From: Candidatus Parcubacteria bacterium
GTDB taxonomy: Bacteria; Patescibacteriota; Patescibacteriia; UBA1558; GWA2-36-10
Reading direction: 5' to 3'
DNA: 64,000 bases
Assembly: GCA_018664825.1 (NCBI GenBank)
Contig: JABJNO010000024.1
Coordinates: 7,204 to 71,203 of the forward strand
The translations under genes were made by a program, and so were the position numbers. The notes under the pieces are model-generated. The model worked only from the letters and a program-made list of their open reading frames with translations, was not told the origin of the DNA and did no database searches. The number at the start of each line of letters is the position of its first letter. The stretch's first letter is position 1. Shown here in pieces: positions 778-20,548 of the stretch.

Positions 778-1386
778 TTATTCAACTCTAATGCCACTGA
801 TCTGTCCTTTTCTTTTTAGGGCTGCAGCTTGCACCATAATAGGGCTATGATTTTGAGTTTTATCATTCATAATCAAAACACCACCAACACGCAAATCATC
901 TGGCAAAGAATCAAGACTGGTCATAAAAATATCCAAATTACCATCTATATTCAATCCTTTGGGTAGCGACTCTTGTCCTTTGGCAATAAACTCAAAGTAA
1001 CCGTAGACCGTAAGATTTTCTGGAATATCTATTTGCCCGCTAGTATTGATAGTCAAATCACGATTGATAGTTATGCGAGTACCTTTTCTTTTGTTGGGGA
1101 AAACTACGCACTCATTCTTCAAACAACTGTCTACAGTAGTGATATTTCCCGTCCCTGTTTCTTCAGGAAAGGCATTTATCTTTTCCAAAAATTTTCTTAA
1201 AACTATAAATTTTATTACCAATCCTTCCAATGAATTAATTCTTTCTTCTATTTTGTCTCTTTTATTTGCCCACATAGCAAAATTATCAGAACTAATATCT
1301 GGTACAGAAAAATCACTTACTGTAATTTTGATTTCTGATAAAATCCTTCTAAAATTTTTGCAATTTGGTATTTCTATGTCTCTCAT
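778..1386 (-). CDS. LRR-like repeat protein, paralogue family member (20-residue LPxxLxVxGxL repeats, conserved C-terminal tail AAALKRKGQISG)
   Basis: Repeats SLPKGLNIDGNLDI / SLPDDLRVGGVLIM; C-tail shared with 5507, 8202, 8854 and 14509 genes; no signal peptide. Confidence 0.6.
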   Translation of the reverse strand: MRDIEIPNCKNFRRILSEIKITVSDFSVPDISSDNFAMWANKRDKIEERINSLEGLVIKFIVLRKFLEKINAFPEETGTGNITTVDSCLKNECVVFPNKRKGTRITINRDLTINTSGQIDIPENLTVYGYFEFIAKGQESLPKGLNIDGNLDIFMTSLDSLPDDLRVGGVLIMNDKTQNHSPIMVQAAALKRKGQISGIRVE

Positions 1387-5506: not shown

Positions 5507-6103
5507 TTACCTACCAGCAGGATAATTAAACATTACTTCGGATACTTGACCTTTTTCACTCAAAGCTAGGGCCTGCTGTCCTAGTTTTTCATTACTTGCA
5601 TTTAACATTAATTTTCCTTTTACTACTATATCGTCTGGTAGTTCTGTAATAAAATTATTTTCATCCAAAATTAAATCTCCATAAACTACCAATCCTTTTG
5701 GTAGTTCTTTGACTCCAGAAAAATTTATATTAAAACTTCCTACTACTTCTAGGTTGTCTGGCAATTGCCTGATTTTTCCTTCTCCGCGGATATCCAAATC
5801 TGTATCTACTATAAACCTGTATCTATCCGCATAAAGCCTAGCTCCATATTTTTTCTCTACTCTTTCTTGTTTTTGTTTTGTTATCTTTGCTATAAAATGA
5901 AAAAAACTAAGCCTATCCATGTTGGTGGTAAAATAACAAAAATGATAACCTATCTGACGTTTTAGATCCTGTGCTCTTCTAATAAGTAGCTGAGTATCCT
6001 TTGTATCAGAAATATTTTCAAGATCAGAAATAAAATCTACCAAAGCAGGTCTCAACTGTTGCTCTATTACCATTTTATAATCTGGACATTTTTCTTTTCT
6101 CAT
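5507..6103 (-). CDS. LRR-like repeat protein, paralogue family member
   Basis: Repeats LPDNLEVVGSFNINFSGVKELPKGLVVYGDLILDENNFITELPDDIVVKGKLML; tail ALALSEKGQVSEVMF. Track ORF reaches 6241 but would overlap hup, so the start is trimmed to the ATG at 6103 (MRKEKCPDYK). Confidence 0.55.
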   Translation of the reverse strand: MRKEKCPDYKMVIEQQLRPALVDFISDLENISDTKDTQLLIRRAQDLKRQIGYHFCYFTTNMDRLSFFHFIAKITKQKQERVEKKYGARLYADRYRFIVDTDLDIRGEGKIRQLPDNLEVVGSFNINFSGVKELPKGLVVYGDLILDENNFITELPDDIVVKGKLMLNASNEKLGQQALALSEKGQVSEVMFNYPAGR

Positions 6104-6179
6104 ACATACATAATATAGCAAACAAAAAAGGCTGTCCATGTAGGACAGGCCTTTTTTAATATAATTTCTATTCTCTGCC

Positions 6180-6461
6180 TTAGAGTACTGAATCTTTAGC
6201 AGCTTTTGCAACACGGAATTTAACAACAGTCTTGGCAGCAATCTGGATAGATTCGCCTGTGGCTGGGTTACGTCCCATACGTGCAGCGCGGTCTTTCTTT
6301 ACCAATTTTCCAATTCCAGGAATGATAAATTCGCCACTTTCTCTGACTTCGCTATAAGCCAATTCTGCAAAAGTGTCCATAAATTCGGTCACTTCTTTTT
6401 TGCTCATGCCTGTCTTTTCAGCCAAGACATTTAGCAACTGTGATTTTGTTAGTTTTGCCAT
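6180..6461 (-). CDS. hup: DNA-binding protein HU
   Basis: 93 aa, MAKLTKSQLL...GFGKF-like arm RMGRNPATGESIQIAAKTVVKFRVAKAAKD. Confidence 0.9.
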   Translation of the reverse strand: MAKLTKSQLLNVLAEKTGMSKKEVTEFMDTFAELAYSEVRESGEFIIPGIGKLVKKDRAARMGRNPATGESIQIAAKTVVKFRVAKAAKDSVL

Positions 6462-7736: not shown

Positions 7737-7878
7737 AAAAAATTTCTCCTCAAAAAGGAGAAATATAATGTAAACATCATCTTCCCCTTTTTAGGGGTTG
7801 GATTTAGCACCGTTCCTATAAGGATGGTTGCCGGCGGGTCGTCGAGCCAATTCTCTCACCGCACTCTTGATAACTAAA
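7737..7878 (-). ncRNA. SAM-I (S-box) riboswitch with intrinsic terminator in the metK leader
   Basis: Minus-strand transcript GUUAUCAAGAGUGCGGUGAGAGAAUUGGCUCGACGACCCGCCGGCAACC...ACGGUGCUAAAUCCAACCCCUAAAAAGGGGAAGAUGAUG matches the S-box consensus (UUAUCAAGAG..GGNGGAGGGA..GCAACC..GGUGCUAA.UCC), followed by hairpin UUUCUCC-UUUUUGA-GGAGAAA plus U-tract just upstream of the metK ATG. Confidence 0.8.
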
Positions 7879-8201: not shown

Positions 8202-8849
8202 ATGACCTCAATAACTTGCAAACAACTTAAAAGAGACTATACAACATTAAAAGCTGATCTTATAGAGATTAATCAGCTCTTGGCTACTGGCAAAAATCAT
8301 AGCGACATAGCAGAAATCAAAGACAAACAAAAACAACTTCTTGATGCCATAGAAACTTTGGCAGAAGATGTTTTTGTCTTCAAGGCTCACGAACAAGTCA
8401 CGGCTATGTTGCTCGGAGATACTAGATTACAATCTGGTAGAGTAAAAACCCGTGAAAAAGCAACTACCTGGATTGAAAAAAATGTTGACCTAGACATGGC
8501 ACAAAAATTGGTGAAAATAGAAAATCTTTATTACGAAAACGTCCAGATTACTAAACTACCTGACAATCTCTATATCAAAGGAAATCTAGAACTACGAGGA
8601 TCTCAAGTTGCTGAACTTCCTGGATTTTTATATGTGGGAGGAAATATGGATATACAAGAAACTAGAATCACAACCTTGCCCAATGGTTTGTCTGTAGGAG
8701 GAAATTTGAACCTAATAAATTCAGGTGTCGCTACTTTTCCTGAAATTATCTATATCAAAGGAGGTTTGATAGTAGGAAAAAATCTAGAAGACGCAGCCAA
8801 TAAACTAAAAGAGAACGGAAGAGTCCAAGGAGAAATCACAGTAATATAA
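8202..8849 (+). CDS. LRR-like repeat protein, paralogue family member
   Basis: N-term ITCKQLKRDYTTLKADL; repeats KLPDNLYIKGNLELRGSQVAELPGFLYVGGNMDIQETRITTLPNGLSVGGNLNL; tail AANKLKENGRVQGEITVI. Confidence 0.65.
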   Translation: MTSITCKQLKRDYTTLKADLIEINQLLATGKNHSDIAEIKDKQKQLLDAIETLAEDVFVFKAHEQVTAMLLGDTRLQSGRVKTREKATTWIEKNVDLDMAQKLVKIENLYYENVQITKLPDNLYIKGNLELRGSQVAELPGFLYVGGNMDIQETRITTLPNGLSVGGNLNLINSGVATFPEIIYIKGGLIVGKNLEDAANKLKENGRVQGEITVI

Positions 8850-8853
8850 AAAT

Positions 8854-9393
8854 ATGCCCGAACCAAGCTGCGAACAACTTAGACAAGAATTGACTGCGGT
8901 AAAATCTATACTGGCTGAATTTGCTTTAGCTATAAACGAACCCTTGAGTGATAAAAGTATCAAGATTTTACAAAGCCTAAAAACTAAAATTCAAAAAGCT
9001 ATACCCAAACTAGACAACTTGTGGTTTGATTCTGAACCAATCTTGAATAAGATTATAGATATAGTAATAAAAACAGCTGACAGTAGTCCAAGCAACAAAG
9101 AAGAAGTAGAACAACTAATAAAAGATTGGACAAAAAATAATCTAAGAATAGACCAAAAGAATAGAAAAATAATAATTACAGGAGACTGGGATCTTTCAGG
9201 TTCTACTATTGGCGAGCTACCCGACAATATCCAGATAGAAGGAAATTTACACCTTGAGCATAGCTCAATTAGTAAACTACCAAACAACCTCTATGTAGAA
9301 GGATGGTTATACGTAGACAAAAGTTTGAAGAAAGAAGCAGAAAGACTAGCTAAACTAGGAAATTTAAAAGAAGGCGTAGCAACAAGAGAATAA
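8854..9393 (+). CDS. LRR-like repeat protein, paralogue family member (tandem to 8202)
   Basis: N-term PSCEQLRQELTAVKSIL; repeats ELPDNIQIEGNLHLEHSSISKLPNNLYVEGWLYV; tail AERLAKLGNLKEGVATRE. Confidence 0.65.
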   Translation: MPEPSCEQLRQELTAVKSILAEFALAINEPLSDKSIKILQSLKTKIQKAIPKLDNLWFDSEPILNKIIDIVIKTADSSPSNKEEVEQLIKDWTKNNLRIDQKNRKIIITGDWDLSGSTIGELPDNIQIEGNLHLEHSSISKLPNNLYVEGWLYVDKSLKKEAERLAKLGNLKEGVATRE

Positions 9394-9725: not shown

Positions 9726-10457
9726 TTATTCTATGATTACTTTTGTGTCATACTCAGACCACCAGTAGAGATGTTCCATGTCTCTATAATGCACATTGAC
9801 GCAACCATGGCTCATTGGCTGGCCAAAATTGTCATGCCAATAAGCTCCATGGATATAATACCGATATCGCTGAGTAGTAAAATGTAAATTCCATTTTGTA
9901 TTTGGATAATCAAAGTCTGCTCCACCATAATGCTTGACTGGTACTTTATCCAAAATAGTAAATTGACCTTCTGGAGTAGGCATATTGCTCAGACCGCTAG
10001 ATATCGGAAAAGAATCAAATAAATATTCTCCAAAATAATAACTCAAACTTTGTTCTGCCAAATTGACCTTGATCAATTTTTCTTTTTTTACAGGCTCGCT
10101 ACTAAGTGGGTCATAGCCAGCTGCTACCTCAGTACCATCTAGATAAAGATCACCATCCGAATCAGGATTCATCAAACCAGTACCAAGTATCAACTCCCAC
10201 TTGTCATTGAGATAATCTTTGTCACTATCTACCTCTATCAAACGAGAGCCATCTCCGTGTCGTGGTGAATATCCATAGGATACTTCCAAGGAATCTGAAA
10301 AACCATCACCATCAGTATCTGGATTGTTTGGATCTGTATAATAAATATTTTTCTCCTGATCATCAAATAAACCATCTTTATCTGCATCCATCACGTCTGC
10401 ACTGGCAATCATTGGTATCAAGCATAAGAAAAATAAAATAAAATATATTTTTTTCAT
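9726..10457 (-). CDS. secreted L,D-transpeptidase (YkuD domain) with N-terminal thrombospondin-type-3-like Ca-binding DxDxDG repeats
   Basis: Signal peptide MKKIYFILFFLCLIPMIASA; DADKDGLFDD, DTDGDGFSD, DSDGDLYLD; catalytic HGxxxxxxxxSHGCVNV motif. Confidence 0.75.
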   Translation of the reverse strand: MKKIYFILFFLCLIPMIASADVMDADKDGLFDDQEKNIYYTDPNNPDTDGDGFSDSLEVSYGYSPRHGDGSRLIEVDSDKDYLNDKWELILGTGLMNPDSDGDLYLDGTEVAAGYDPLSSEPVKKEKLIKVNLAEQSLSYYFGEYLFDSFPISSGLSNMPTPEGQFTILDKVPVKHYGGADFDYPNTKWNLHFTTQRYRYYIHGAYWHDNFGQPMSHGCVNVHYRDMEHLYWWSEYDTKVIIE

Positions 10458-10769
10458 AAGTTTATTATAGCATATGATTTTATATTATAAAAAAGTACTA
10501 TTGACAAAACCATAATTATTGTATATAATAATCATCTGTACATTAAATATCGCCCGTCACTATCAGGCCAATAACCAAAAAAGGAGGTGAAGAAATTTCT
10601 AAGGAGTTTTTCAGGAGCGTTGACCTCATTAAGCAAGGTCAACACAAGGATGTAACTTAAGAAGGTTGGGGGACAACCAATGTGTAACTGTTCTGCTCAC
10701 TCAAATCAATTTTTCTCGGCTTTTAGCCTCAAAACAACACGCTCTGTCAATGTGGAACGCGCAACCCAA

Positions 10770-11147
10770 ATGGCTCAAGAGGTCAAATCGACTCTCAGTG
10801 GCCCCAAAGGGGAAATTGCCGTATGCAAGCTGGAGCAAGGTCTTATGACAGCAATCAACGAGATTCTCTGTTTACAAGACCGTACTGATGGCAACGGTGA
10901 ATTTGAGGCTGTAAAAGCCTTTGTCGTGGAGCTGGGAAAATATCCCCGCGTCAATATCCAAGACAAAAAGGTTCGAGAACGGTTTTCCGTTCTTATCACT
11001 AGTCTCAAATCGTCCGCAGGACTCTATGTACGTGGTCGCAAGACCGCAGCATCTGCGACAGTAGCCGACAAAGCTATTACACCGAAGAAAGCCCGGGCCC
11101 AGAAGAAGATTCGTAGAAAGAGAACAACTCAGAAAATTACAATCTGA
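10770..11147 (+). CDS. hypothetical protein with lysine/arginine-rich C-terminal tail, in a GC-rich islet
   Basis: Visibly higher G+C than flanks. ORF could start at 10680, but the ATG at 10770 (MAQEVKSTL) is preferred. Ends with KKARAQKKIRRKRTTQK. Confidence 0.4.
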   Translation: MAQEVKSTLSGPKGEIAVCKLEQGLMTAINEILCLQDRTDGNGEFEAVKAFVVELGKYPRVNIQDKKVRERFSVLITSLKSSAGLYVRGRKTAASATVADKAITPKKARAQKKIRRKRTTQKITI

Positions 11148-11158
11148 TAGTCTCGCCG

Positions 11159-11207
11159 CCAGGTACCAAAATGCATCTAGAATGACATAGGTACCTGGCT
11201 TTTTTTT
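11159..11207 (+). terminator. intrinsic terminator
   Basis: CCAGGTACC...GGTACCTGG stem followed by TTTTTTTT. Confidence 0.6.
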
Positions 11208-11260
11208 GACTAAAAAAACTCCCAGTCTAACTGACTAGGAGTTTTTATATTATTTATAAA

Positions 11261-12787
11261 TTATTTTACAGGTAAGCCTGTGACATAAGCACTTAAATGA
11301 GTTCTATTTATGGTTATGATATCATTCCATTTGTATCCTCTGCTTTCAAAAACATTTCCTGATACAATTTCTTTTTTATAACCATTTTTTATCAAATAGA
11401 CAGTTGGACTATCTGCGGTTTTTACCAAACTGGCTGTTGGATATCTATCAACATCTGTTTTATCAAAAGTGATTATATCAGTCCAACTATTTTTAACATA
11501 TGAGTTAAAAGCAGCTGGCCCAGGAATATGTATCTTCTTGTTATTGAATATCTGATAAACTTTATGACTATCATTTGTCTTTACAAGATGAATATTTGGT
11601 ATAGATTTTATAGTCTGCTCACTGACACGTCTTACATCGTTCCAAGAAAATTTATAACGATTGAATGTATCGATGCTTGGAATACCATATTTTTGACCAT
11701 TATACACAGCATAAGTGACCATTCCCACACTAGATCTAGCTTGGTACAACATTTCTGGTTCAGAATATTTACTGGCACTAGAGCCATTTGATTGTTCTAC
11801 TTCTGAAGCTGCCTTGGTTCTGACACTATATACATTTGAATCCTTTTTTGCACCAAATACATCCACAGCTTTTATCATAAAATAATAAGTAGTATCTGGT
11901 TCTAGGTCTGACAAAAGAAATTCATGATCCATAGATCTAAAAACTTGCAACTGTTCTAAGCTTACTTTATTTTTTAATCTATTTGAATCAGTACCATAAT
12001 ATATATAACCTCCTGCCAATCTATTTGTTGACCAAGACAAAATAATACTGGTGTCACGAATTCCTGAATCATTGGCAGTGATAGGACCAAAATCAGAAAT
12101 TTTCAATGCTGTACGTTCGGCACTATCTGTAATAGTGGTTTTATGACTTTGATTATAATAACTAAACATGTCACCATCTGCATCTACTGATTCTACTTTA
12201 AAATTATAACGAGTAGATACATTTAGTCCACCAACTGTGATGTCATGGTTATTTACTTTTTTTCTGTTTTCTACCCTCTTACCATAAGCAGTAGTACGAC
12301 CATAGTGAACAACACTAGTAGATGGCACCTCTGTGTACCACTGAAAAGTAATACTGGTACCAGTAGTATAAACAACTCTCAAATTTTTAATTTCTAGATC
12401 TCCGCTGCCTTCTTCAAAATCACTAGTAGTAAATGTTCTATCAAATGTAGACAATATCTGTCCATCTGTACTTTGAGAAGTTATTTTAAAATGATAAACA
12501 GCATCAGAGTGTAGATTGTTTAGAGATAGTTCATGATTTAGATTTGTACTACCCTGAGAGACTACATAAGCTCCATAGCTATTGCTAAGACCAAAATCAA
12601 CACGACTGTCAGCTGGAATATTGGTATTCCAACTAATAGTAGCCCTATCATTGTTTAGGGATACTTCAACATTATCTATCCTTAAGCTTTCAGCATTGGC
12701 AATGCCAACAAAATTGACAAAAACCAAGCTCAAAATAATGGCAATAAGTAATGTATTTACGCTAATTTTAGCTAATTTTGACCACAT
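11261..12787 (-). CDS. secreted protein with three FN3-like domains and three C-terminal ~45-aa W-x-D-I/V repeats (possible wall- or glycan-binding)
   Basis: Signal/TM LLIAIILSLVFVNFVGIANA; YHFKITSQSTDG / YNFKVESVDADGD / YYFMIKAVDVFG strands; repeats SWNDVRRV..VYQIF, SWTDIITF..VYLIKNG, YKWNDIITI. Confidence 0.5.
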   Translation of the reverse strand: MWSKLAKISVNTLLIAIILSLVFVNFVGIANAESLRIDNVEVSLNNDRATISWNTNIPADSRVDFGLSNSYGAYVVSQGSTNLNHELSLNNLHSDAVYHFKITSQSTDGQILSTFDRTFTTSDFEEGSGDLEIKNLRVVYTTGTSITFQWYTEVPSTSVVHYGRTTAYGKRVENRKKVNNHDITVGGLNVSTRYNFKVESVDADGDMFSYYNQSHKTTITDSAERTALKISDFGPITANDSGIRDTSIILSWSTNRLAGGYIYYGTDSNRLKNKVSLEQLQVFRSMDHEFLLSDLEPDTTYYFMIKAVDVFGAKKDSNVYSVRTKAASEVEQSNGSSASKYSEPEMLYQARSSVGMVTYAVYNGQKYGIPSIDTFNRYKFSWNDVRRVSEQTIKSIPNIHLVKTNDSHKVYQIFNNKKIHIPGPAAFNSYVKNSWTDIITFDKTDVDRYPTASLVKTADSPTVYLIKNGYKKEIVSGNVFESRGYKWNDIITINRTHLSAYVTGLPVK

Positions 12788-12915
12788 ATTGGTTCATTAA
12801 TTATTTATTATTAATACTATATTATACTACTAAAATAAGGTTTTGTCAATAGTATTGATATTTATATTATACAATGAAAATAAATAATAAAAAACCCCAT
12901 TTTTTCAAATGGGGT

Positions 12916-13119
12916 TTATTTTCGGCGTGAATTGAGTATGATTTCCATCTTTTCATCTCTGGTCAAAAAATCTTCCCTTTCTGCTAATGCTCTTTTACGA
13001 GCTCTTTCCCTCTCCTCTGGCGGTAATTTACGTAAATATTTACGAAAACTATTGGGCAATCGTTTGCCCTTGCCATATGGAGAGCGTTTTCTGGGAACAC
13101 CTCTATACTTAACCATCAC
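12916..13119 (-). CDS. small highly basic hypothetical protein (67 aa)
   Basis: MMVKYRGVPRKRSPYGKGKRLPNSFRKYLRKL; bracketed by G/C-clamped hairpins at 12892-12921 and 13186-13211. Confidence 0.35.
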   Translation of the reverse strand: MMVKYRGVPRKRSPYGKGKRLPNSFRKYLRKLPPEERERARKRALAEREDFLTRDEKMEIILNSRRK

Positions 13120-13185
13120 TCACCTCCTTTGCTTGAGATAGAACTACTATACCTATATCTTACCTAATTATTGAAAAAAGTAAAA

Positions 13186-13211
13186 CCCCGTTAGAAAATT
13201 TTCTAACGGGG
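13186..13211. repeat. perfect palindromic hairpin CCCCGTTAGAAAATTTTCTAACGGGG (bidirectional terminator, copy 1 of 2)
   Basis: Same 13-bp arms recur at 14445-14472; T-runs on both sides. Confidence 0.6.
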
Positions 13212-13220
13212 TGTTTTGTT

Positions 13221-13787
13221 TTACAAATTGTACTCTTGCCAAAGAGGTAGCCACTCTTCTCGGAAGACTGCCGTCAATACTCCATCATAATACTGACCGT
13301 CTTTGAAAAAATGATCTTTTCGCCGACCCTCTTCTTTGTAGCCACACCTGGCGTTGAATGCCAAACTGCGACCATTGTAGGCAATGGCTTCTGAGCAAAC
13401 CTTTCTGAGGTTTAAAGTATGAAAAGCATAGTCAAGCAAAATCATCTTGGCATCAGTACCATATCCTTTGCCACGATTCTGCTCATCACCAATCAAAGCA
13501 CCCGTAGTAGCCACTCTAGCGACCCAATCAATACCATGCAAACCGATATTGCCAATCAACTCCCCTTCTAATGTTTCGATAGCAAAGGTAATGTTATTTT
13601 TCCTTTTACCCAAACCATCGATCCATTCCTCTTCTTCTTGTAGGCCAATAGGTGTAAACCCGGTCATAAACTTTCTCACACCTGGATCATTGATCCAGCG
13701 CTGAAAAGCTTCCATATCGGTCGCCTTATTGACTGGCCGAAGAACTACCTTTTTTCCTTGCAGAAAAACTACTTTGTCACTCATCAT
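13221..13787 (-). CDS. GNAT family N-acetyltransferase (RimJ/RimL-like)
   Basis: GNIGLHGIDWVARVATTGALIGDEQNRGKGYGTDA acetyl-CoA binding motif; AGGAGG SD in front of ATGATG at 13787; G+C higher than flanks. Confidence 0.7.
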   Translation of the reverse strand: MMSDKVVFLQGKKVVLRPVNKATDMEAFQRWINDPGVRKFMTGFTPIGLQEEEEWIDGLGKRKNNITFAIETLEGELIGNIGLHGIDWVARVATTGALIGDEQNRGKGYGTDAKMILLDYAFHTLNLRKVCSEAIAYNGRSLAFNARCGYKEEGRRKDHFFKDGQYYDGVLTAVFREEWLPLWQEYNL

Positions 13788-14109
13788 TTTCCTCCTATGT
13801 AAAAGAACGCAACAAAAAAACTGTCTCACGCATTGAGACAGCCTTTGTATACTACAAAATAATTTTTTCTATGTATTTATAAAATAAAAAGACTGCCTCA
13901 ATGGAAAATTGGCCACCATTTTGGTGGAATCAATACATAGTCCATAGTTGTGCAATCTTTGATTGTTCATATATTTATTTTATTGTAATCCAATTACAAC
14001 ATCTTTATATATTTTTGTCAAATCATCGACCTTCACCTTATTGACAAACAATACCTATCATGTTAATTTAATTTGTTCTTTTAAATAAACTTTTTCAAAG
14101 GAGATAATC

Positions 14110-14403
14110 ATGCAAAACGGATACCTTCTAGTAGCCAACAACAAGGCTTTTCTCAGAGAATTTGGCAAACGGGCCCCCAAGGGACTAAAAACAACCTGGG
14201 AAGATGTGCCCAAAGAACATCTACCCGTAACCTTGATTGATAATGGTGATTTTAGTTCTGCGGCAGTCAACCACAGTCAACGTGAATTTGAAGTTTTTAC
14301 AGCCCTCAATCCTGGTGATACCCGACCCAAGACAATATATTTTGTCCCTATAGAAGTTCTATTGCTGGCCACCCCTGGTTTGGACGAACTCCTCAAGAAG
14401 TAA
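14110..14403 (+). CDS. hypothetical protein (97 aa)
   Basis: SD AAAGGAGATAATC-ATG; followed by perfect hairpin GCCGACGTGTA-C-TACACGTCGGC and then the second CCCCGTTAGAAAAT palindrome. Confidence 0.45.
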   Translation: MQNGYLLVANNKAFLREFGKRAPKGLKTTWEDVPKEHLPVTLIDNGDFSSAAVNHSQREFEVFTALNPGDTRPKTIYFVPIEVLLLATPGLDELLKK

Positions 14404-14444
14404 ACTCTCGGCCGACGTGTACTACACGTCGGCTGTTTTATTTG

Positions 14445-14472
14445 CCCCGTTAGAAAATATTTTCTAACGGGG
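14445..14472. repeat. palindromic hairpin CCCCGTTAGAAAATATTTTCTAACGGGG (copy 2 of 2)
   Basis: Near-identical to 13186-13211. Confidence 0.6.
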
Positions 14473-14508
14473 TTTGCTTATCTTTGCTAAATATAATAAA
14501 ATAACTTT

Positions 14509-15291
14509 ATGAAACTTTGCGAAAAAATAGCCGAACAAATGCAATCTATCTATGCTCTAAGGCAGGAGTTTGTCGATGCTATTGAAGATGGCAAAAAAAC
14601 CAAAGATTTTAAACCCGCTCACAAAATCAAAGACGTATATGAAGGAAAATATGTAAAAACTGTCTATAAAAATATCCATCCTTATATAAACCTGATTTTT
14701 TTGGCTGTTACATACCTATCAAGAGAGGGAAAGGCTCATGGCAAAAAACAACTTTCAGAAGCCCTAAACAAAATAGAGGTCAAGGGAGAAGCTGTACATG
14801 TGCCATATTCTCTAACCGTAGGAAATAAAACAGCCGACGGACCAAGTGATATTATGATATTACCAGATGATTTGGTGGTTGATGGTGATTTGGACATTTG
14901 GAGCTACTCAATAGAAAAGTTACCCAGCAAACTAAAAGTAAAAGGAGACTTGAATATTTCTGGTACTACTATCACTGAAATTCCCAAGGGTATAGAAATC
15001 GGTGGAGATTGTAAAATGCAAAAAACAAATATACACCAACTCCCACTAAATTTTAAAATCAAAGGAGATCTTGATATCAGAAGTACCCAAATAGCCTGGC
15101 TACCAAAAGGATTGCATGTAGGTGGAAGTGTATATGCCCAGGCCACAGGCATCGATACTATTGTAGATATCCCTGATGATGTAGTCATCGAAGGAGATTT
15201 ACATGTACGTAATAAATTTAACAATAACGAAGCCCTAGAACTAAAAAACCAGGGTATTGTAAAAGGTGAGGTATACAATCACTACAACTAA
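14509..15291 (+). CDS. LRR-like repeat protein, paralogue family member (six 20-residue repeats)
   Basis: LPDDLVVDGDLDIWSYSIEK / LPSKLKVKGDLNISGTTITE / IPKGIEIGGDCKMQKTNIHQ / LPLNFKIKGDLDIRSTQIAW / LPKGLHVGGSVYAQ.. / IPDDVVIEGDLHV; tail ALELKNQGIVKGEVYNHYN. Confidence 0.65.
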   Translation: MKLCEKIAEQMQSIYALRQEFVDAIEDGKKTKDFKPAHKIKDVYEGKYVKTVYKNIHPYINLIFLAVTYLSREGKAHGKKQLSEALNKIEVKGEAVHVPYSLTVGNKTADGPSDIMILPDDLVVDGDLDIWSYSIEKLPSKLKVKGDLNISGTTITEIPKGIEIGGDCKMQKTNIHQLPLNFKIKGDLDIRSTQIAWLPKGLHVGGSVYAQATGIDTIVDIPDDVVIEGDLHVRNKFNNNEALELKNQGIVKGEVYNHYN

Positions 15292-15306
15292 AAAAGACTT
15301 GTTGGA

Positions 15307-15335
15307 TTGACAAAATAGCATATTTATGCTATTTT
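15307..15335 (+). promoter_or_regulatory. sigma-70-like promoter TTGACA-17-TATTTT with embedded 18-bp palindrome ATAGCATA-TT-TATGCTAT (putative operator)
   Basis: Hexamers at 15307-15312 and 15330-15335; perfect inverted repeat 15315-15332. Confidence 0.45.
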
Positions 15336-15384
15336 TAGTTGTTCGCGTTTTTTCAAAACAAACTCAAAAACAAGGAGAAGGCAC

Positions 15385-15630
15385 ATGGCTGCTGTAAATG
15401 TCAGAGGATTCAAAAACAAAGAAGCAATTATTGTACAGGATATTCCCTACGGTGAAGACGAGACACTGGAAGTTGATTCACCGGTCACTCTGACTGGTAT
15501 GACAAAAGTTTGCGTTAGCAAAACCCGTAGAATACCTTTTATCATGGTTGAAGTAACATCCGTACTACTTCTCAATGGAACTGATTCCATCTTTGTTGAT
15601 GGAAACTGTCTCGAACTGTTGGAAATCTGA
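15385..15630 (+). CDS. hypothetical protein (81 aa), GC-rich islet
   Basis: SD AAGGAGAAGGCAC-ATG; higher G+C than genome background. Confidence 0.45.
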   Translation: MAAVNVRGFKNKEAIIVQDIPYGEDETLEVDSPVTLTGMTKVCVSKTRRIPFIMVEVTSVLLLNGTDSIFVDGNCLELLEI

Positions 15631-15654
15631 CAACACCCAAAAAAGGAGAGACTA

Positions 15655-16020
15655 ATGCCGAACATTGAAATGCACGGGTTCCAAACCCACATAGTCATGC
15701 CTGAGGATGACGTTTCCTTTTTCCGGAACACCAAAAACAAGATTCACGAAGTTATTCGTAAACTCGAGCTGACTGGGGAAGCGGTCATCACTATTCACAA
15801 TACAACTGTCGAACGTTGTGATGGTAGCGATAAGCCCGCTCCCTATCTCCGTGTCTGTGGGACAAATGATACAGATGACGCCGATATCGAAGGCATCGTC
15901 GAGGCTCTGATTGAGTGCGAGATCGCAGTTGACTGCGAAACCCTGACACTCGATGACTTCTACCCCGATGTTGAAATGGGAGCAGAAGCCAAAGAAGACG
16001 ATTCGAAAAAAGAATCGTAA
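15655..16020 (+). CDS. hypothetical acidic protein (121 aa), GC-rich islet
   Basis: SD AAAGGAGAGACTA-ATG; acidic C-terminus; strong terminator follows. Confidence 0.45.
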   Translation: MPNIEMHGFQTHIVMPEDDVSFFRNTKNKIHEVIRKLELTGEAVITIHNTTVERCDGSDKPAPYLRVCGTNDTDDADIEGIVEALIECEIAVDCETLTLDDFYPDVEMGAEAKEDDSKKES

Positions 16021-16026
16021 AAAATA

Positions 16027-16062
16027 ACCCCGCCAAGCAAAGCTTGGCGGGGTCTTTATTTT
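16027..16062. terminator. bidirectional intrinsic terminator CCCCGCCAAGC-AAA-GCTTGGCGGGG
   Basis: 11-bp GC-rich stem with T-tracts on both strands, between convergent genes. Confidence 0.7.
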
Positions 16063-16065
16063 GAT

Positions 16066-16548
16066 TTATTTTACTAACTTTTCTAGCTCCATTACTACCT
16101 GAGGAGTAGCTTTGTCTGCTGTCTCAATGACTTTACCAAAATCTACTTTGGCAACTGCATTGTAGACAAACTCAGCCGCATCTTTACCATGTGGAGGCTC
16201 ACGACTTGCATCTCGCTCTATGCAGATATCAAGTGGTGCATGTAAAGTAAAAACTTGCGTATCCACCGATACATTGTCTACCAAATCATCTATCGCTTCT
16301 TTAAAATAAAAATTTCCATCAACAATTACACTTGTTCCCCTATCAAAATTCTTTTCAAGTTCGGAAAGTATGATTTTATTAGCCTTGAGGAAATCTTCTA
16401 CCACATAGCCATTCTCTGCTTCAAGGTCATTGTCTTTGAGAACTTGATCAACTGAAATATACTCGGCTTGGATATGATGAGCCAAATATTTTGATACTGT
16501 TGATTTACCGACTCCTAGAGGGCCCCGGATTATTATAAGTTTTGACAT
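16066..16548 (-). CDS. P-loop NTPase / small-molecule kinase-like AAA-domain protein
   Basis: Walker A GPLGVGKST; ~160 aa, reminiscent of shikimate-kinase/zeta-toxin/chloramphenicol-phosphotransferase-like kinases. Confidence 0.55.
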   Translation of the reverse strand: MSKLIIIRGPLGVGKSTVSKYLAHHIQAEYISVDQVLKDNDLEAENGYVVEDFLKANKIILSELEKNFDRGTSVIVDGNFYFKEAIDDLVDNVSVDTQVFTLHAPLDICIERDASREPPHGKDAAEFVYNAVAKVDFGKVIETADKATPQVVMELEKLVK

Positions 16549-18012: not shown

Positions 18013-18184
18013 ATTTTTACTTAAATAATAATATGGCCGCAGTCCACCTTACTTGACTTCGCCATTCACATTGAATCTAGCTTATCAAAAAAACAGGATT
18101 ATAACAATCCAGTTCTTTTTGACAGGAACAACAAAACAATACATGAACCTTTTTTAATAACAACGATTAAAGGTCTTGATTATT

Positions 18185-18495: not shown

Positions 18496-18526
18496 TTGAC
18501 AAAATTGCTATTTTATAGTAAAAATA
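18496..18526 (+). promoter_or_regulatory. putative sigma-70 promoter TTGACA-17-TAAAAA upstream of the 18577 gene
   Basis: Perfect -35 at 18496-18501; weak -10. Confidence 0.35.
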
Positions 18527-18576
18527 TAACCCTGTCATAACCATATGACATGTTCCTACAATAGAAAGTGATAATC

Positions 18577-18894
18577 ATGCCACAAAAGAAACACCTTTTC
18601 TTCTCAGCTCGACAGAACGCACATTCTACTGGTGACGGACTCATTCTCTGGTACGTAAAAGAGGACGAAGAATGCCCAGGAGTACCAGAGCTTGTAGAGG
18701 TATCAGAAGTTATGGAAGTTCATGAAAATGAGCCAATCCCGACAAGTACTTGGGATGACGCCAAGTATCTAGGGATCGGAGCCTTCCATCAAAAAGGACC
18801 TGGATTTGCAACTACAGATTTTTCCCCCAACGACACGGATGATTTAGCCGCTGACCTTGCTAGCGATTATCCCTTCTATGATGTCTATGAATAA
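18577..18894 (+). CDS. hypothetical acidic protein (GC-richer islet)
   Basis: SD GAAAGTGATAATC-ATG (track ORF begins 9 nt earlier); followed by two hairpin terminators 18920-18995. Confidence 0.45.
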   Translation: MPQKKHLFFSARQNAHSTGDGLILWYVKEDEECPGVPELVEVSEVMEVHENEPIPTSTWDDAKYLGIGAFHQKGPGFATTDFSPNDTDDLAADLASDYPFYDVYE

Positions 18895-19004: not shown

Positions 19005-19606
19005 TTAATGGTTCCGTGGACCTAATAGCCAGTATGGCGTCAGCGCGCCAACACCGTTACCTTCTTCATAAACAGTGTCCTCTCGCCCTCCATCATTTGC
19101 CATCTTATACGCGCCAGCTTCAAGGTAGGTAGCTATAATATATGTTTGCCTATCTGCAGTAACATGATAAAGATAGCCCCGCCCCAAATCATCCCAGACA
19201 GTTTGTCCTTCCACTAGTGATGGATCTAGAGGGCATGATGTATGAAGTAAGCCCATACTAAATAGCCCACCAATTGGTAAACCATCACAGTTATCCTCTG
19301 GCGGGTTTACCCCAGTGCCATTTAAAAATCCTTCTACGTCAGCAGTTGGATTAGGACCACAACTTAAATTTGAATCCTTTGTCCCCCCATTAACATCCTC
19401 TGCATCACCACAAGGATATACGCCATAGTGTTCATAATATATTTTCAAAGCAAGTCGAAAATCATCTAACTCATGAAGACGTACAGCATCACGAGCCTTG
19501 GCTTTGACGGTATTTAAATTTATTATAGACACAGTAGAGAGTATTCCAATAATAGCAATTACAACTAACAATTCGACAAGCGTAAAACCTAATTTATTAT
19601 GTGCCA
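19005..19606 (-). CDS. type IV pilin-like protein (prepilin N-terminal cleavage/methylation domain), solitary copy
   Basis: MAHNKLGFTLVELLVVIAIIGIL; start trimmed from 19652 to the ATG at 19606. Confidence 0.75.
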
Positions 19607-19653
19607 TTATTTTATACATAAATTTATTATACCAGAAAAATAAAAAGTTCAAA

Positions 19654-19718
19654 AGTTACTTTAGGGTAACAAAAAAACAGGATTAAAAATCCAGTTCTTT
19701 TGGCAGGGGCGGTGGGAC
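19654..19718. repeat. ~65-bp repeat, copy 1: AAGTTCAAAAGTTACTTTAGGGTAACAAAAAAACAGGATTAAAAATCCAGTTCTTTTGGCAGGGG (includes a copy of the tRNA-Trp 3' end CCCCTGCCA)
   Basis: Near-identical to 20414-20480; degenerate third copy around 18095-18140. Confidence 0.7.
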
Positions 19719-19826: not shown

Positions 19827-20360
19827 ATGAAGGTAACTGTTCTTGTTTTAGGTCTTGTGATTCTCTTGGGTGGTGTGCTTTTTAAAGAAGGTATTGCCGT
19901 TGTCTTGGGCACTCTACTGTTTATAGGTAGCATAACAAGCTTTTCAAAACCAAAACACCGTAACAACCCCCCTACTAATAAGCGTCATCTTAATGATTCA
20001 AAAAGAAGGGACGACTTAACCGAGGCTGAGCTACTAGCTCTTCAAGAAACTATAGAAAACTATCTTTTTGAAAGATTTAATACAATCAGATTATCTGGTG
20101 TATCTAGATATCCAAAGATAGGTGAAGTTTTTTTGATAAACCATATAAGCTGTAGGGAAGATGTATCTAAACGTCTAGTAGGCAAAGCCTTAAAAGCTAT
20201 CGTGGTAGATTATGGTTCACCTAATTATTTTTCTGCTTGTTTTGTTGGAGATAATAAGGCTATTTGGGATCTACCATATCCACATAACAAAAAAAACATA
20301 GGACCTGGACCCAAATTCGAAGAAAAAATTAGACACCGAAAAAACCGACATAAGACCTGA
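19827..20360 (+). CDS. membrane-anchored hypothetical protein (177 aa)
   Basis: SD GGAGGTAAAGAA-ATG; N-terminal TM VLVLGLVILLGGVLF; sits between the two 65-bp repeats. Confidence 0.5.
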   Translation: MKVTVLVLGLVILLGGVLFKEGIAVVLGTLLFIGSITSFSKPKHRNNPPTNKRHLNDSKRRDDLTEAELLALQETIENYLFERFNTIRLSGVSRYPKIGEVFLINHISCREDVSKRLVGKALKAIVVDYGSPNYFSACFVGDNKAIWDLPYPHNKKNIGPGPKFEEKIRHRKNRHKT

Positions 20361-20413
20361 GTAAGTCTCAAGAACTACTCCCCCTGTACATCGCGTGCGG
20401 GGTTTTTTATTTA

Positions 20414-20480
20414 AAAAGTTCGAAAGTTACTTTAGGGTAACAAAAAAACAGGATTAAAAATCCAGTTCTTTTGGCAGGGG
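20414..20480. repeat. ~65-bp repeat, copy 2, the native tRNA-Trp trailer/terminator (GGATTAAAAATCC hairpin plus T-tract)
   Basis: Abuts and overlaps the 3' end of tRNA-Trp. Confidence 0.7.
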
Positions 20481-20548
20481 TACTAGGATTCGAACCCAGT
20501 CTTGTGGTTTTGGAGACCACCGTGCTAGCCAATTGACACTATACCCCC
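20472..20548 (-). tRNA. tRNA-Trp (anticodon CCA), CCA end encoded
   Basis: GGGGGTATAGTGTCAATTGGCTAGCACGGTGGTCTCCAAAACCACAAGACTGGGTTCGAATCCTAGTACCCCTGCCA folds as a cloverleaf; anticodon loop CUCCAAA. Confidence 0.85.

What the first reader, a model, noticed from the sequence alone, without database searches (positions are those of the whole stretch)
10560..16062. GC-rich islets of small unknown genes bracketed by near-identical G/C-clamped hairpins: likely horizontally acquired cargo
By eye the segments 10680-11147, 13221-13829, 14110-14403, 15385-16020 and 18568-18894 have clearly higher G+C (roughly mid-40s percent) than the ~one-third G+C background. Each encodes one or two small proteins with strong AGGAGG ribosome-binding sites and no recognisable family, apart from the GNAT acetyltransferase. 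Each is terminated by a GC-rich perfect hairpin; two of the hairpins are the same 26-28 bp palindrome. The 15.3 kb promoter carries a perfect 18-bp palindromic operator (ATAGCATA-TT-TATGCTAT), suggesting a dedicated repressor. Inference: recently acquired genes, conceivably from a higher-GC host or phage, inserted among the LRR-like paralogues. The pair at 15385-16020 (81-aa protein plus 121-aa acidic protein, shared promoter/operator and terminator) looks like a self-contained two-gene module of unknown function.
Basis: partly seen in the sequence, partly recalled or inferred. Interest (0 to 1): 0.55.

Follow-up and report, generated by a model that had tools for sequence, protein, structure and literature searches.

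The report
Small odd-composition genes, mobile hairpin terminators
In an uncultured Parcubacteria genome, a row of small GC-richer genes proves to be mostly old, stably inherited lineage-specific genes rather than fresh imports, while the two "identical hairpins" are copies of a tiny mobile palindrome found in several phyla and used here as transcription stops.

Summary
Genes A (10680-11147), GNAT, D, G and H have raised G+C and GC3. G, A and H are the three strongest codon-usage outliers of 65 genes. All seven long perfect palindromes in the 64 kb lie between 12.9 and 21 kb.

In two sister lineages (L010, L032) the 66-aa gene B, GNAT, F and G sit at the same positions. They are under purifying selection, their synonymous sites are saturated, and GC3 is still raised. 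These are therefore not recent cargo.

Only D (with E) lies in a 1.26-kb indel between lineages. D belongs to an uncharacterised ~100-aa family also found in phage and mobile-element contexts.

The shared hairpin is a MITE-like element with ends CCCCGTTAGAAAAT. Nineteen of 38 distinct copies from metagenomes have exact 4-bp target duplications. Hosts include Nitrospirota and Patescibacteria. Window copy 2 sits in the T-tract of D's own terminator, flanked by TTTG/TTTG. The hairpins do not delimit cargo.

The GNAT also has a conserved upstream-ORF/terminator attenuator, present in 20 of 23 loci.

A, F, G and H remain without assigned function.

The parts
10501..10529 (+). Consensus sigma-70 promoter (TTGACA-17-TATAAT) of gene A
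   Evidence: scores it 12 of 12. It is a 35-nt inverted near-copy of the promoter at 12821-12849 (I1).
10680..11147 (+). Gene A: 155 aa, basic C-terminal tail, no known family, atypical codon usage
   Evidence: GC3 is 0.44 and codon z is -6.4. There are no Pfam, PHROG, NCBIfam, PADLOC or PDB hits and no viral relatives. It is fixed in the same context in 23 contigs of the species.
11158..11207 (+). Terminator of A: 10-bp stem, 22-nt loop, T8
   Evidence: Read from the sequence.
12892..12917 (-). Intrinsic terminator of gene B (perfect 11-bp stem)
12916..13116 (-). Gene B: 66-aa very basic protein. It is conserved in sister lineage L010 at 82% aa identity.
   Evidence: dN/dS is 0.135.
13186..13211 (.). 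Mobile palindrome copy 1 (CCCCGTTAGAAAA|TTTTCTAACGGGG). It serves as the bidirectional terminator after the GNAT. It is orthologous in L010, with no recognisable target duplication.
13221..13787 (-). GNAT acetyltransferase (Acetyltransf_3 type, no equivalog). It belongs to a family widespread in Patescibacteria.
   Evidence: Pfam E-value is 1.8e-20. NCBIfam hits all fall below their cut-offs. Homologues of 45-58% identity occur in 21 genomes. L010 is 80% identical.
13813..13842 (-). Leader terminator of the GNAT (CUGUCUCA-AUGCG-UGAGACAG followed by U7)
13869..13970 (-). 33-codon upstream ORF, MNNQRLHNYGLCIDSTKMVANFPLRQSFYFINT. Its 3' part (13888-13901) is the antiterminator strand that pairs with the 5' arm of the terminator.
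   Evidence: Against L010, the first 16 codons show 5 synonymous and 0 non-synonymous changes.
13993..14021 (-). Promoter of the GNAT leader (-35 TTGACA at 14016-14021, -10 TGTAAT at 13993-13998)
   Evidence: Sequence. It is conserved in L010. The same layout is seen in homologous loci.
14024..15305 (.). Segment present in the window but absent in L010. It carries the D promoter, D, two terminators and E, and is bounded by ATTGACAAA repeats at 14042-14050 and 15305-15313.
14110..14403 (+). Gene D: 97 aa, a divergent member of an uncharacterised ~100-aa family (162 representative clusters). The alpha/beta fold is confidently predicted and has no significant structural match.
14409..14435 (+). 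D's own intrinsic terminator (perfect 11-12-bp stem)
14441..14476 (.). Mobile palindrome copy 2 (14445-14472) with its 4-bp target duplication TTTG (14441-14444 and 14473-14476). It is inserted in the T-tract of D's terminator.
14509..15291 (+). Gene E: 260-aa repeat protein with background composition. It is one of five paralogues in the window (778, 5507, 8202, 8854, 14509).
15307..15335 (+). F-G promoter. The 24-bp palindrome AAAATAGCATA-TT-TATGCTATTTT (15312-15335) overlaps it, running from the last base of the -35 box (15307-15312) through the -10 box (15330-15335).
   Evidence: The outer 8-bp arms are kept in L010 although the surrounding DNA is no longer alignable.
15385..15630 (+). Gene F: 81 aa, fast-evolving (40-42% identity to the L010 orthologue)
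15655..16020 (+). Gene G: 121 aa, acidic, with four Cys that are invariant in the alignment with its L010 orthologue. It is a near-orphan, kept in three lineages.
   Evidence: Only 2 clusters in 5.8 billion proteins. It is 67-70% identical in L010 and L032. dN/dS is 0.05-0.32.
16027..16053 (.). Bidirectional terminator shared by G and the convergent kinase gene. The sequence is conserved in L010 and L032.
18577..18894 (+). Gene H: 105 aa, acidic, no known family, atypical codon usage
   Evidence: It has the same context in 23 contigs.

Best explanation
**What the stretch is.** The window comes from an uncultured Parcubacteria (Patescibacteria) bacterium. Between about 10.5 and 19 kb its genome holds a run of independent one- or two-gene transcription units. 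Most carry a near-consensus sigma-70 promoter, several have a Shine-Dalgarno site, and most end in a perfect-stem intrinsic terminator. This layout explains why long perfect hairpins are concentrated here.

**The genes.** Six small genes (A, GNAT, D, F, G, H) have raised GC3 or atypical codon usage. Where sister lineages can be read, B, GNAT, F and G are vertically inherited, selected genes. Their odd composition is a stable property and not a trace of recent import. For G it must be actively maintained. For the GNAT an old import from a GC-richer Patescibacterium remains possible.

**The exception.** Gene D, a member of a phage- and mobile-element-associated family, lies with the native-looking paralogue E in a 1.26-kb segment that differs between lineages.

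**The shared hairpin.** The two identical hairpins are copies of a miniature transposable palindrome. It has terminal inverted repeats CCCCGTTAGAAAAT, a variable centre, a length of 26 to about 150 bp and a 4-bp target duplication. It occurs in Nitrospirota, Patescibacteria and some viral contigs. It lands in intergenic A/T-rich sites and here acts as a terminator. Copy 1 is the GNAT terminator and is an old insertion shared with L010. Copy 2 sits behind D's own terminator. The hairpins do not delimit cargo.

**GNAT control (inferred).** A short upstream ORF overlaps the antiterminator strand. Smooth translation would let the terminator form. Stalled or absent translation would allow read-through.

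**Shown versus inferred.** Shown: composition, synteny, selection, target duplications and leader architecture. Inferred: terminator activity, transposition in trans, the attenuation logic, and F-G autoregulation through the promoter palindrome.
For: **Organism.** The exact proteins lie on contigs of GCA_018670855.1, 'Candidatus Parcubacteria bacterium'.

**Composition.**

**Transcription-unit anatomy.** Promoters and terminators are. Long palindromes occur only at 12.9-21 kb.

**Synteny.** L010 reads B, hairpin, GNAT, leader, F, G, kinase. L032 reads FKBP, kinase, terminator, G.

**Selection and saturation.** dS is 0.94 for B, 1.6 for GNAT, 4.4 for G and 1.65 for the kinase. dN/dS is 0.05-0.14.

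**Persistent GC3.** G is 0.52 versus 0.50 and GNAT is 0.41 versus 0.43, while the kinase is 0.25 in both. The GNAT family tends to exceed local GC3 in 15 of 20 other hosts.

**Expression bias is not enough.** Four-fold sites are 48-58% G+C in A, D and G, against about 23-25% in HU and DnaK.

**Gene D.** It has 162 homologous clusters. Contexts include a phage early module next to RusA and replication genes, a TrwB/TraG-type neighbourhood and a phage-like contig.

**The palindrome.**
- It occurs in 38 metagenome loci with unrelated flanks and G+C of 34-55%.
- Nineteen of 38 distinct copies have an exact 4-bp direct repeat. Permuting the flanks gives a mean of 2.9 and a maximum of 10 in 10,000 trials.
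- Longer and nested forms have the same ends and TAAA duplications.
- Hosts are named Nitrospirae and Kaiserbacteria.
- Three viral contigs carry variants.
- Thirty-three of 38 copies are intergenic.

**The leader.**
- Twenty of 23 loci (all but L011, L014 and L023) show a TTGAC -35 motif and/or an upstream ORF together with a terminator, followed by the GNAT.
- The best complement to the terminator's 5' arm lies inside the upstream ORF in every scored locus, and 10-35 nt before its stop in most.
- Both leaders fold more stably than shuffles, with z of -3.1 and -4.1.
- Codons 1-16 show 5 synonymous and 0 non-synonymous changes.
Against: - Only two short sister contigs exist (2.2 and 1.5 kb). 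Conservation of A, H, D and E outside the species is untested.
- The direction of the D/E indel cannot be set without an outgroup. It could be a gain in the window lineage or a loss in L010.
- The mechanism that would keep GC3 high is unknown. Nei-Gojobori estimates on 66-190 codons are noisy.
- No autonomous element with the same ends was found, and no clean filled-versus-empty site pair either. The L037/L068 comparison was uninformative.
- Half of the copies lack a duplication, including window copy 1.
- No expression data exist for any promoter, terminator or the attenuator. Individual antiterminator duplex scores are modest in many loci.
- Functions of A, F, G and H remain unassigned. The AlphaFold model of G was unusable, with mean pLDDT 44.
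Confidence: 0.6

Rival explanations
1. One reading: each GC-rich islet is recently acquired cargo from a GC-richer host or phage, delivered as cassettes that are delimited by the near-identical hairpins.
For: The composition and codon usage are atypical. The genes are near-orphans. D is variable and belongs to a phage-associated family. The palindrome is itself mobile.
Against: B, GNAT, F and G are syntenic in two sister lineages. Their synonymous sites are saturated and GC3 is unchanged. The two identical hairpins have no common outer duplication: copy 2 has its own TTTG pair and copy 1 is ancestral. The other hairpins are unrelated to each other in sequence. No recombinase gene lies between 8 and 21 kb (gene table). 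No donor or viral relatives were found.
Confidence: 0.08
2. Old horizontal acquisition. The islets entered the common ancestor of this genus-level group from GC-richer donors, such as other Patescibacteria or their phages. They are still only partly ameliorated.
For: Four-fold sites are enriched in both C and G, unlike the native highly expressed genes. The best GNAT homologues sit in genomes of 47-51% G+C and have GC3 of 0.62. Back-extrapolating the GNAT's excess over about 0.8 substitutions per site gives an ancestral GC3 near 0.6, which is plausible. The region is a variable, accessory-looking stretch.
Against: For G the synonymous sites are fully saturated (pS 0.75). A relic signal would therefore need an impossible ancestral GC3 above 1 (inference). 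Both lineages show nearly the same GC3, as expected at an equilibrium. The GNAT family is GC3-rich relative to its neighbours in 15 of 20 hosts, which points to a property of the family.
Confidence: 0.25
3. The shared palindrome is not mobile. It would be either a convergently selected strong terminator or the binding site of a conserved protein (Xer/dif-like or attC-like) that flanks exchangeable modules.
For: Many copies are 28 bp long, as dif sites are. Several loci have a gene flanked by two copies: tsaB in L068, rplA-rplL in L040, and GNAT plus D in the window. The stems followed by T-runs score as terminators.
Against: Exact 14-nt arms across phyla are not expected from convergence. The centre varies from 0 to more than 50 nt, unlike the fixed 6-bp dif spacer. 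The GTTAG...CTAAC order is the reverse of the attC core sites. The 4-bp direct repeats, which differ from copy to copy, are the mark of transposition.
Confidence: 0.07
4. F-G is a toxin-antitoxin-like or defence-related addiction module, which would explain both its persistence and its operator.
For: Two small co-transcribed genes lie behind a promoter-overlapping palindrome. One partner, F, evolves fast.
Against: Neither protein hits any Pfam, PADLOC, NCBIfam or PDB entry. Both proteins look acidic by inspection of their sequences. The module is single-copy and fixed at one locus in three lineages rather than patchy.
Confidence: 0.1

Closest known systems
Miniature inverted-repeat transposable elements (MITEs) reused as regulatory signals, such as Neisseria Correia elements (comparison from general knowledge)
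   Same: Both are non-coding with perfect terminal inverted repeats. Both have short target-site duplications, sit between genes, occur in many copies and can fold into a hairpin that acts on transcription.
   Different: Most copies here are only 26-42 bp, essentially two ends with almost no interior. The 14-nt ends are identical across phyla. The duplication is 4 bp with a TTTA/TAAA preference (9 of 19). No autonomous partner is known. Any link to IS1380/piggyBac-type elements rests on memory of 4-5-bp duplications, 'CC' ends and a piggyBac end CCCTAGAAAG. Only the pairing of piggyBac with IS1380 was checked in a paper (PMC5718144).
Ribosome-mediated transcription attenuation by leader peptides (trp-type attenuators; antibiotic-responsive leaders of resistance genes such as vmlR, as recalled from the term-seq literature)
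   Same: Both have a short upstream ORF, an intrinsic terminator before the gene and a mutually exclusive antiterminator whose 5' strand lies inside the ORF.
   Different: This one uses three segments rather than four. The ORF starts at or near the transcript start and lacks a Shine-Dalgarno site in many loci. It controls a GNAT acetyltransferase in Patescibacteria. There is no run of regulatory codons. The N-terminal half is conserved as peptide and the 3' half as RNA. No Rfam family matches it.
Genomic islets or 'morons' of orphan genes with atypical composition
   Same: They are small genes with their own promoter and terminator, atypical codon usage and no known family. At least one (D) has phage relatives.
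   Different: Most are stably syntenic in sister lineages, and their composition has not drifted toward the host despite saturated synonymous change.
pdif (Xer) modules and integron cassettes
   Same: Genes are flanked by short palindromic sites of about 28 bp.
   Different: The spacer is variable, each site has its own target duplication, the order of the core motifs is reversed relative to attC, and there is no Xer- or integrase-type gene nearby.

Membership tests
Recently acquired genomic island / cargo cassette | Composition and codon usage differ from the host | tested here: met
   GC3 is 0.38-0.52 against 0.305 +/- 0.062. Codon z ranges from -3 to -7.2.
Recently acquired genomic island / cargo cassette | Absent from, or differently placed in, close relatives | tested here: not met
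   B, GNAT, F and G are syntenic in L010, and G in L032. Only D and E are absent from L010. A and H could not be tested.
Recently acquired genomic island / cargo cassette | Boundaries marked by shared repeats or att sites, or a mobility gene | tested here: not met
   No recombinase is present (table). The two identical palindromes are independent insertions. The other hairpins are unrelated to each other.
Recently acquired genomic island / cargo cassette | Compositional signal decays with time (amelioration) | tested here: not met
   GC3 is equal in orthologues although dS is saturated.
MITE (non-autonomous DNA transposon) | Terminal inverted repeats | tested here: met
   Perfect 13-14-nt arms CCCCGTTAGAAAAT are present in all copies.
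MITE (non-autonomous DNA transposon) | Target-site duplication of fixed length that differs between copies | tested here: met
   Nineteen of 38 copies have an exact 4-bp repeat. Permutation gives a mean of 2.9 and a maximum of 10 in 10,000 trials. Window copy 2 has TTTG/TTTG.
MITE (non-autonomous DNA transposon) | Many copies in unrelated genomic contexts | tested here: met
   It occurs in 38 metagenome loci and 3 viral contigs, with no shared flanking genes. Two copies lie in this 64 kb.
MITE (non-autonomous DNA transposon) | Autonomous element with the same ends encoding a transposase | tested here: inconclusive
   None was found in about 0.7 Mb of fetched loci. None was found in PLSDB plasmids or INPHARED phages. 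The large collections could not be rescanned.
MITE (non-autonomous DNA transposon) | Filled and empty alleles of one site | tested here: inconclusive
   In the L037/L068 comparison the intergenic DNA is too different to call an empty site.
REP/REPIN elements moved by RAYT transposases | GTAG-type head, imperfect palindrome, no target duplication, RAYT gene in the genome | tested here: not met
   The palindrome is perfect and target duplications are present. No RAYT was seen in the loci held.
Intrinsic (Rho-independent) terminator | G+C-rich stem followed by a T-run at the 3' end of a gene | tested here: met
   Twenty-six terminator-like sites were found against 8.5 +/- 3.0 in shuffles. All the named hairpins are listed. 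Activity was not measured.
Leader-peptide transcription attenuator | Upstream ORF plus terminator between the promoter and the gene | tested here: met
   The window, L010 and 18 of 21 distant GNAT loci show it.
Leader-peptide transcription attenuator | Alternative pairing that excludes the terminator and overlaps the ORF | tested here: met
   The best complement to the terminator's 5' arm lies inside the ORF in every scored locus, and 10-35 nt before its stop in most. A long antiterminator helix appears in the MFE folds.
Leader-peptide transcription attenuator | The ORF is translated and its peptide or codons matter | tested here: inconclusive
   Codons 1-16 show 5 synonymous and 0 non-synonymous changes between the window and L010. 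No Shine-Dalgarno site is present. There are no expression data.
Leader-peptide transcription attenuator | Read-through responds to ribosome stalling | not testable with these tools
   This needs reporter assays or term-seq.
Known RNA families (Rfam 15) | Match at or above the gathering score in the GNAT leader or any islet | tested here: not met
   Searches found only tRNAs and the metK SAM riboswitch.
Type II toxin-antitoxin module (F-G) | Homology of either partner to a known toxin or antitoxin family | tested here: not met
GNAT acetyltransferase (gene at 13221-13787) | Acetyltransferase domain above the Pfam cut-off | tested here: met
   PF13302 scores 74.5 bits against a cut-off of 25.4. 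No NCBIfam equivalog is reached, so the substrate is unknown.

The most novel reading that the evidence does not exclude
The CCCCGTTAGAAAAT palindrome would be a previously undescribed, near-minimal mobile element. Many copies are only 26-42 bp, little more than two transposase-binding ends. It would have spread between phyla (Nitrospirota, Patescibacteria, some phages) and would deliver ready-made bidirectional terminators into intergenic A/T-rich sites. Next to it, a Patescibacteria-wide GNAT would be controlled by an undescribed nascent-peptide attenuator that senses translation stress.
Probability: 0.35. Interest if true: 0.65.

Novelty: new member of a known kind. Interest (0 to 1): 0.45.

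Why it matters
**For the original claim.** The result is a caution. Atypical G+C and codon usage in a small, AT-rich symbiont-type genome need not mean recent transfer. Here the signal survives saturated synonymous divergence.

**For CPR biology.** Three reusable leads come out of the work.
1. A tiny palindromic element appears to move between phyla and to supply terminators. It could serve as a marker for gene flow among groundwater and sediment bacteria.
2. A conserved upstream-ORF attenuator sits in front of a widespread GNAT. It gives a testable handle on how these uncultured, ribosome-poor organisms sense translation stress or antibiotics.
3. A family of ~100-aa proteins with more than 160 clusters is shared by phages and bacteria. 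Its fold is confidently predicted and has no significant structural match.

Tried and rejected
- **Concatenated homology search.** One search with all six small proteins joined returned nothing, because the candidate list was swamped. It cost one of three searches, so A, B, F and H never had a deep homology search.
- **Structure of G.** The AlphaFold model built from a 2-sequence alignment was unusable, with mean pLDDT 44. My guess of a tautomerase-like fold, based on the MPNIEMHGF start, is untested and dropped.
- **Sequence libraries.** Pfam, PHROGs, NCBIfam, PADLOC and PDB sequence searches were negative for A, B, D, F, G and H.
- **Viral scans.** Scans for A, D, G and H were negative.
- **Rfam.** Nothing was found at permissive thresholds for the region or for seven homologous GNAT loci.
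- **More distant synteny.** The GNAT (21 genomes) and the kinase (about 50% identity) show no shared neighbours, so the lineage is isolated.
- **Empty-site test.** The L037/L068 comparison for the palindrome was uninformative.
- **Cultured plasmids and phages.** BLAST of the palindrome found only chance partial hits.
- **Literature.** Searches for the sequence and for MITEs in CPR gave nothing relevant.
- **Expression-linked codon bias.** This was considered as the whole explanation for the high GC3. C-ending NNY codons are shared with HU, but four-fold G+C is not.
- **Other readings rejected.** The dif/pdif, attC and REP readings of the palindrome were rejected on spacer variability, motif order and the presence of target duplications.

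Full report
**Source and setting.**
The exact 121-aa product of 15655-16020 is encoded on 23 contigs. These include NCBI MAG GCA_018670855.1 ('Candidatus Parcubacteria bacterium') and a 283-kb JGI contig, and all show the same gene order. Nine same-species contigs are 99.6-100% identical to the window. The finding lies between metK, which has a SAM riboswitch at 7774-7876, and the L33/tRNA/dnaK cluster.

**Observation check.**
- The window is 35.8% G+C. Mean GC3 of 71 mechanical ORFs is 0.305 +/- 0.062.
- The named segments stand out in the sliding profile and per gene. GC3 is 0.44 for A, 0.41 for GNAT, 0.41 for D, 0.34 for F, 0.52 for G and 0.385 for H.
- A synonymous-codon likelihood test ranks G (z -7.2), A (-6.4) and H (-4.3) as the top three outliers of 65 genes. 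D scores -3.0 and GNAT -2.95.
- All seven perfect palindromes with arms of at least 10 nt in the 64 kb lie between 12.9 and 21 kb.
- The arm CCCCGTTAGAAAAT occurs in exactly two palindromes, at 13186-13211 and 14445-14472.
- The promoter palindrome is 24 bp (15312-15335). It overlaps the last base of TTGACA and runs through TATTTT.
- Only the GNAT matches any protein library.
Two small corrections apply: A and H lack a strong ribosome-binding site directly upstream of the start.

**Are the islets recent imports?**
G has only two clusters among 5.8 billion proteins: its own and a 67%-identical one. The contig of that relative (L010, 2.2 kb) reads B, the same palindrome, GNAT, a conserved leader, F, G, kinase.

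A third lineage (L032, 1.5 kb) reads FKBP, kinase, the same terminator, G.

| Gene | aa identity to the window | Lineage |
|---|---|---|
| B | 82% | L010 |
| GNAT | 80% | L010 |
| kinase | 78% / 89% | L010 / L032 |
| FKBP | 76% | L032 |
| G | 67% / 70% | L010 / L032 |
| F | 40% | L010 |

Nei-Gojobori estimates give dS of 0.94 for B, 1.6 for GNAT, 1.65 for the kinase and 4.4 for G. F is saturated. dN/dS is 0.05-0.14. These are real, selected genes, and their synonymous sites have turned over.

The orthologues nevertheless keep the same GC3. G is 0.52 versus 0.50, GNAT is 0.41 versus 0.43, and the kinase is 0.25 in both.

For G, a relic of import would need an ancestral GC3 above 1, so the excess must be maintained (inference). 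For the GNAT, an old import from a donor with GC3 near 0.6 is arithmetically possible. Its best homologues, in genomes of 47-51% G+C, do have GC3 of 0.62. The family also exceeds local GC3 in 15 of 20 other hosts.

Expression-linked bias explains part of the signal only. C-ending NNY codons are shared with HU. Four-fold G+C, however, is 48-58% in A, D and G against about 23-25% in HU and DnaK.

A and H could not be checked outside the species. They are fixed in it.

**The one variable piece.**
L010 aligns to the window at 12912-14023 and again at 15643-16371. F's promoter and coding region follow directly after the GNAT leader promoter in L010. The window therefore has an extra 14024-15305, bounded by ATTGACAAA at both ends. 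This segment holds D's promoter, D, two terminators and E.

E has background composition and four paralogues in the window. D is GC-richer. The block is therefore compositionally mixed, and its polarity cannot be set without an outgroup.

An exhaustive HMMER search gives D 162 homologous representative clusters. The family is ~100 aa, with the pattern MGxYVNP...KE.FL...LPV.LVDNG.F.AA...F..P.D.RPK. It is absent from Pfam, PHROGs and the PDB.

Family members sit in four kinds of context:
- a phage early module, between RusA and an HTH gene and upstream of terminase and portal;
- beside a sigma-like/HARE-HTH gene, DUF8128 and a TrwB/TraG-type ATPase;
- a phage-like contig of many small unknown genes;
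- an ordinary chromosomal neighbourhood.

D is thus the one islet gene with positive evidence of a mobile pedigree.

**The 'near-identical hairpins'.**
A metagenome scan for CCCCGTTAGAAAAT-N(0-14)-ATTTTCTAACGGGG returned 38 loci. Their flanks are unrelated, their G+C is 34-55%, and no protein is shared with the window.

- Nineteen of 38 distinct copies carry an exact 4-bp direct repeat immediately outside the palindrome. Counts are TTTA 6, TAAA 3, TGAA 2 and CTTG 2, plus single cases of CTCA, TTCA, TCAA, TGTA, TTAA and TTTG. Permuting the right flanks among copies gives a mean of 2.9 and a maximum of 10 in 10,000 trials.
- Longer and nested forms share the ends and the TAAA duplications. Examples are 67 nt (L063), 95 nt (L043) and 147 nt (L036).
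- Neighbouring proteins are named Nitrospirae bacterium (L040, where the element lies between rplK and rplA, and L047) and Candidatus Kaiserbacteria (L045).
- Three viral contigs carry variants, one with a CTCA duplication.
- Thirty-three of 38 copies are intergenic.
- Cultured plasmids and phages lack the element.

This anatomy is that of a very small MITE. In the window, copy 2 has TTTG on both sides (14441-14444 and 14473-14476) and sits in the T-tract of D's own terminator. That placement explains the tandem terminators.

Copy 1 is the only terminator after the GNAT. It is orthologous in L010, with a larger centre, and has no recognisable duplication. It is therefore older.

The remaining hairpins (12892, 14409, 16027) are unrelated in sequence. 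At least the G/kinase terminator is conserved with its genes in three lineages. The hairpins therefore do not delimit cassettes.

No transposase with these ends was found. A relation to IS1380/piggyBac-type elements is a lead from memory only (4-5-bp duplications, 'CC' ends, a piggyBac end CCCTAGAAAG). Only the pairing of piggyBac with IS1380 was checked in a paper (PMC5718144).

**The GNAT leader.**
About 200 nt upstream of the GNAT on the minus strand is as conserved between the window and L010 as the coding DNA. The parts are:
- a promoter, with -35 at 14016-14021 and -10 at 13993-13998;
- a 33-codon ORF at 13970-13869;
- a terminator, CUGUCUCA-AUGCG-UGAGACAG followed by U7, at 13842-13813;
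- the ribosome-binding site and the gene.

The ORF's 3' part (CCAUUGAGGCAG...) pairs with the 5' arm of the terminator in a long helix. That helix dominates the minimum-energy folds of both leaders, with z of -3.1 and -4.1.

Twenty of the 23 GNAT loci, including 18 of the 21 distant ones, show this layout. The exceptions are L011, L014 and L023. A TTGAC motif lies 35-40 nt before a 29-47-codon ORF, followed by a terminator and then the GNAT. In nearly all of them the best complement to the terminator's 5' arm lies inside the ORF, 10-35 nt before its stop.

Between the window and L010, codons 1-16 of the ORF differ by five synonymous and no non-synonymous changes. Codons 17-21 differ by four non-synonymous changes. 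This suggests that the N-terminal peptide is under selection.

No Rfam family matches. The inferred logic has two states. A ribosome that translates through the ORF masks the antiterminator strand, so the terminator forms. Stalled or absent translation frees the antiterminator and allows read-through. The GNAT reaches no NCBIfam equivalog, so its substrate is unknown.

**The F-G pair.**
F and G are co-transcribed behind the palindrome-bearing promoter and share one terminator. In L010 the outer 8-bp arms of the palindrome (AAAATAGC/GCTATTTT) are kept, although the neighbouring DNA no longer aligns. G has four invariant cysteines. F evolves fast. Nothing links either protein to a known family, and the model of G failed. 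Autoregulation through the palindrome is a reasonable guess and nothing more.

**Verdict.**
The model of 'GC-rich cargo bracketed by hairpins' fails for the genes that can be tested.

The stretch is best described as a lineage-specific accessory region made of self-contained transcription units. One gene (D) is plausibly derived from a phage or other mobile element. Two copies of a cross-phylum miniature palindromic transposon appear to serve as terminators. The GNAT is governed by an undescribed but conventional-type attenuator.

Each element is a new member of a known kind, so interest is moderate.

Noticed in passing
window 13788-14021 (minus strand); L010 906-1206; L012-L031 upstream of each GNAT match: A conserved module of promoter, short upstream ORF, terminator and antiterminator lies in front of a Patescibacteria-wide GNAT. 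The N-terminal half of the ORF is conserved as peptide (5 synonymous, 0 non-synonymous changes in 16 codons). No Rfam family matches it.
   Followed up: partly
window 19641-19709 and 20412-20480: A 69-nt direct repeat (99% identical) flanks the single 177-aa membrane-protein gene at 19827-20360. The second copy abuts and overlaps the 3' end of tRNA-Trp (20472-20548, minus strand). This looks like an att-type duplication or a small insertion at a tRNA gene. A third partial copy lies at 18078-18119.
   Followed up: no
window 14427-14443 and 14823-14839: A 17-nt perfect inverted repeat links the 3' half plus T-tract of D's terminator (CGTCGGCTGTTTTATTT) to a stretch inside the coding sequence of E. 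By rough estimate, about 0.01 such matches are expected by chance in 15 kb (I22).
   Followed up: no
window 10496-10530 and 12820-12854: The promoters of the convergent genes A and the 508-aa FN3 surface protein are 35-nt inverted near-copies (77%). Both contain consensus TTGACA-17-TATAAT. Together they bracket the A/FN3 pair.
   Followed up: no
window 778-1386, 5507-6241, 8202-8849, 8854-9393, 14509-15291: Five paralogues encode a repeat protein (LP..L.V.G.L.L....I..LP motif) that matches no Pfam family. One of them (E) lies in the lineage-variable segment.
   Followed up: partly
window 7774-7876 (minus): A SAM (S-box) riboswitch lies upstream of metK, at 66 bits against a gathering score of 44.
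   Followed up: no
L040 2130-2157 and 3869-3897; L068 612-641 and 1443-1472; L036 3291-3437: In other organisms the same palindrome family flanks single genes or operon segments: rplA-rplJ-rplL in a Nitrospirae bacterium and tsaB elsewhere. It also occurs nested inside a 147-bp relative. Variant ends such as CCCCGTTAGGGAAT also exist.
   Followed up: partly
window 10536-10679: Gene A has a long 5' leader. It contains two strong Shine-Dalgarno-like sites (AAGGAGGTG, TAAGGAG) that are not followed by an obvious start codon, and a 7-bp hairpin (GTTGACC...GGTCAAC). It may be a small upstream ORF or a structured leader.
   Followed up: no
window 18496-18560: H's promoter shares the motif TGCTATTTT with the right half of the F-G palindrome, at a similar distance from TTGACA. 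It is followed by a second small palindrome (TGTCATAACCATATGACA). The two units may be co-regulated.
   Followed up: no
L086, L088 versus window 19005-19619; L083 versus window 9726-10457: Within the species, the type IV pilin-like gene (200 versus 204 aa) and the YkuD L,D-transpeptidase gene (228 versus 243 aa) vary in length between samples. The small islet genes are invariant.
   Followed up: no
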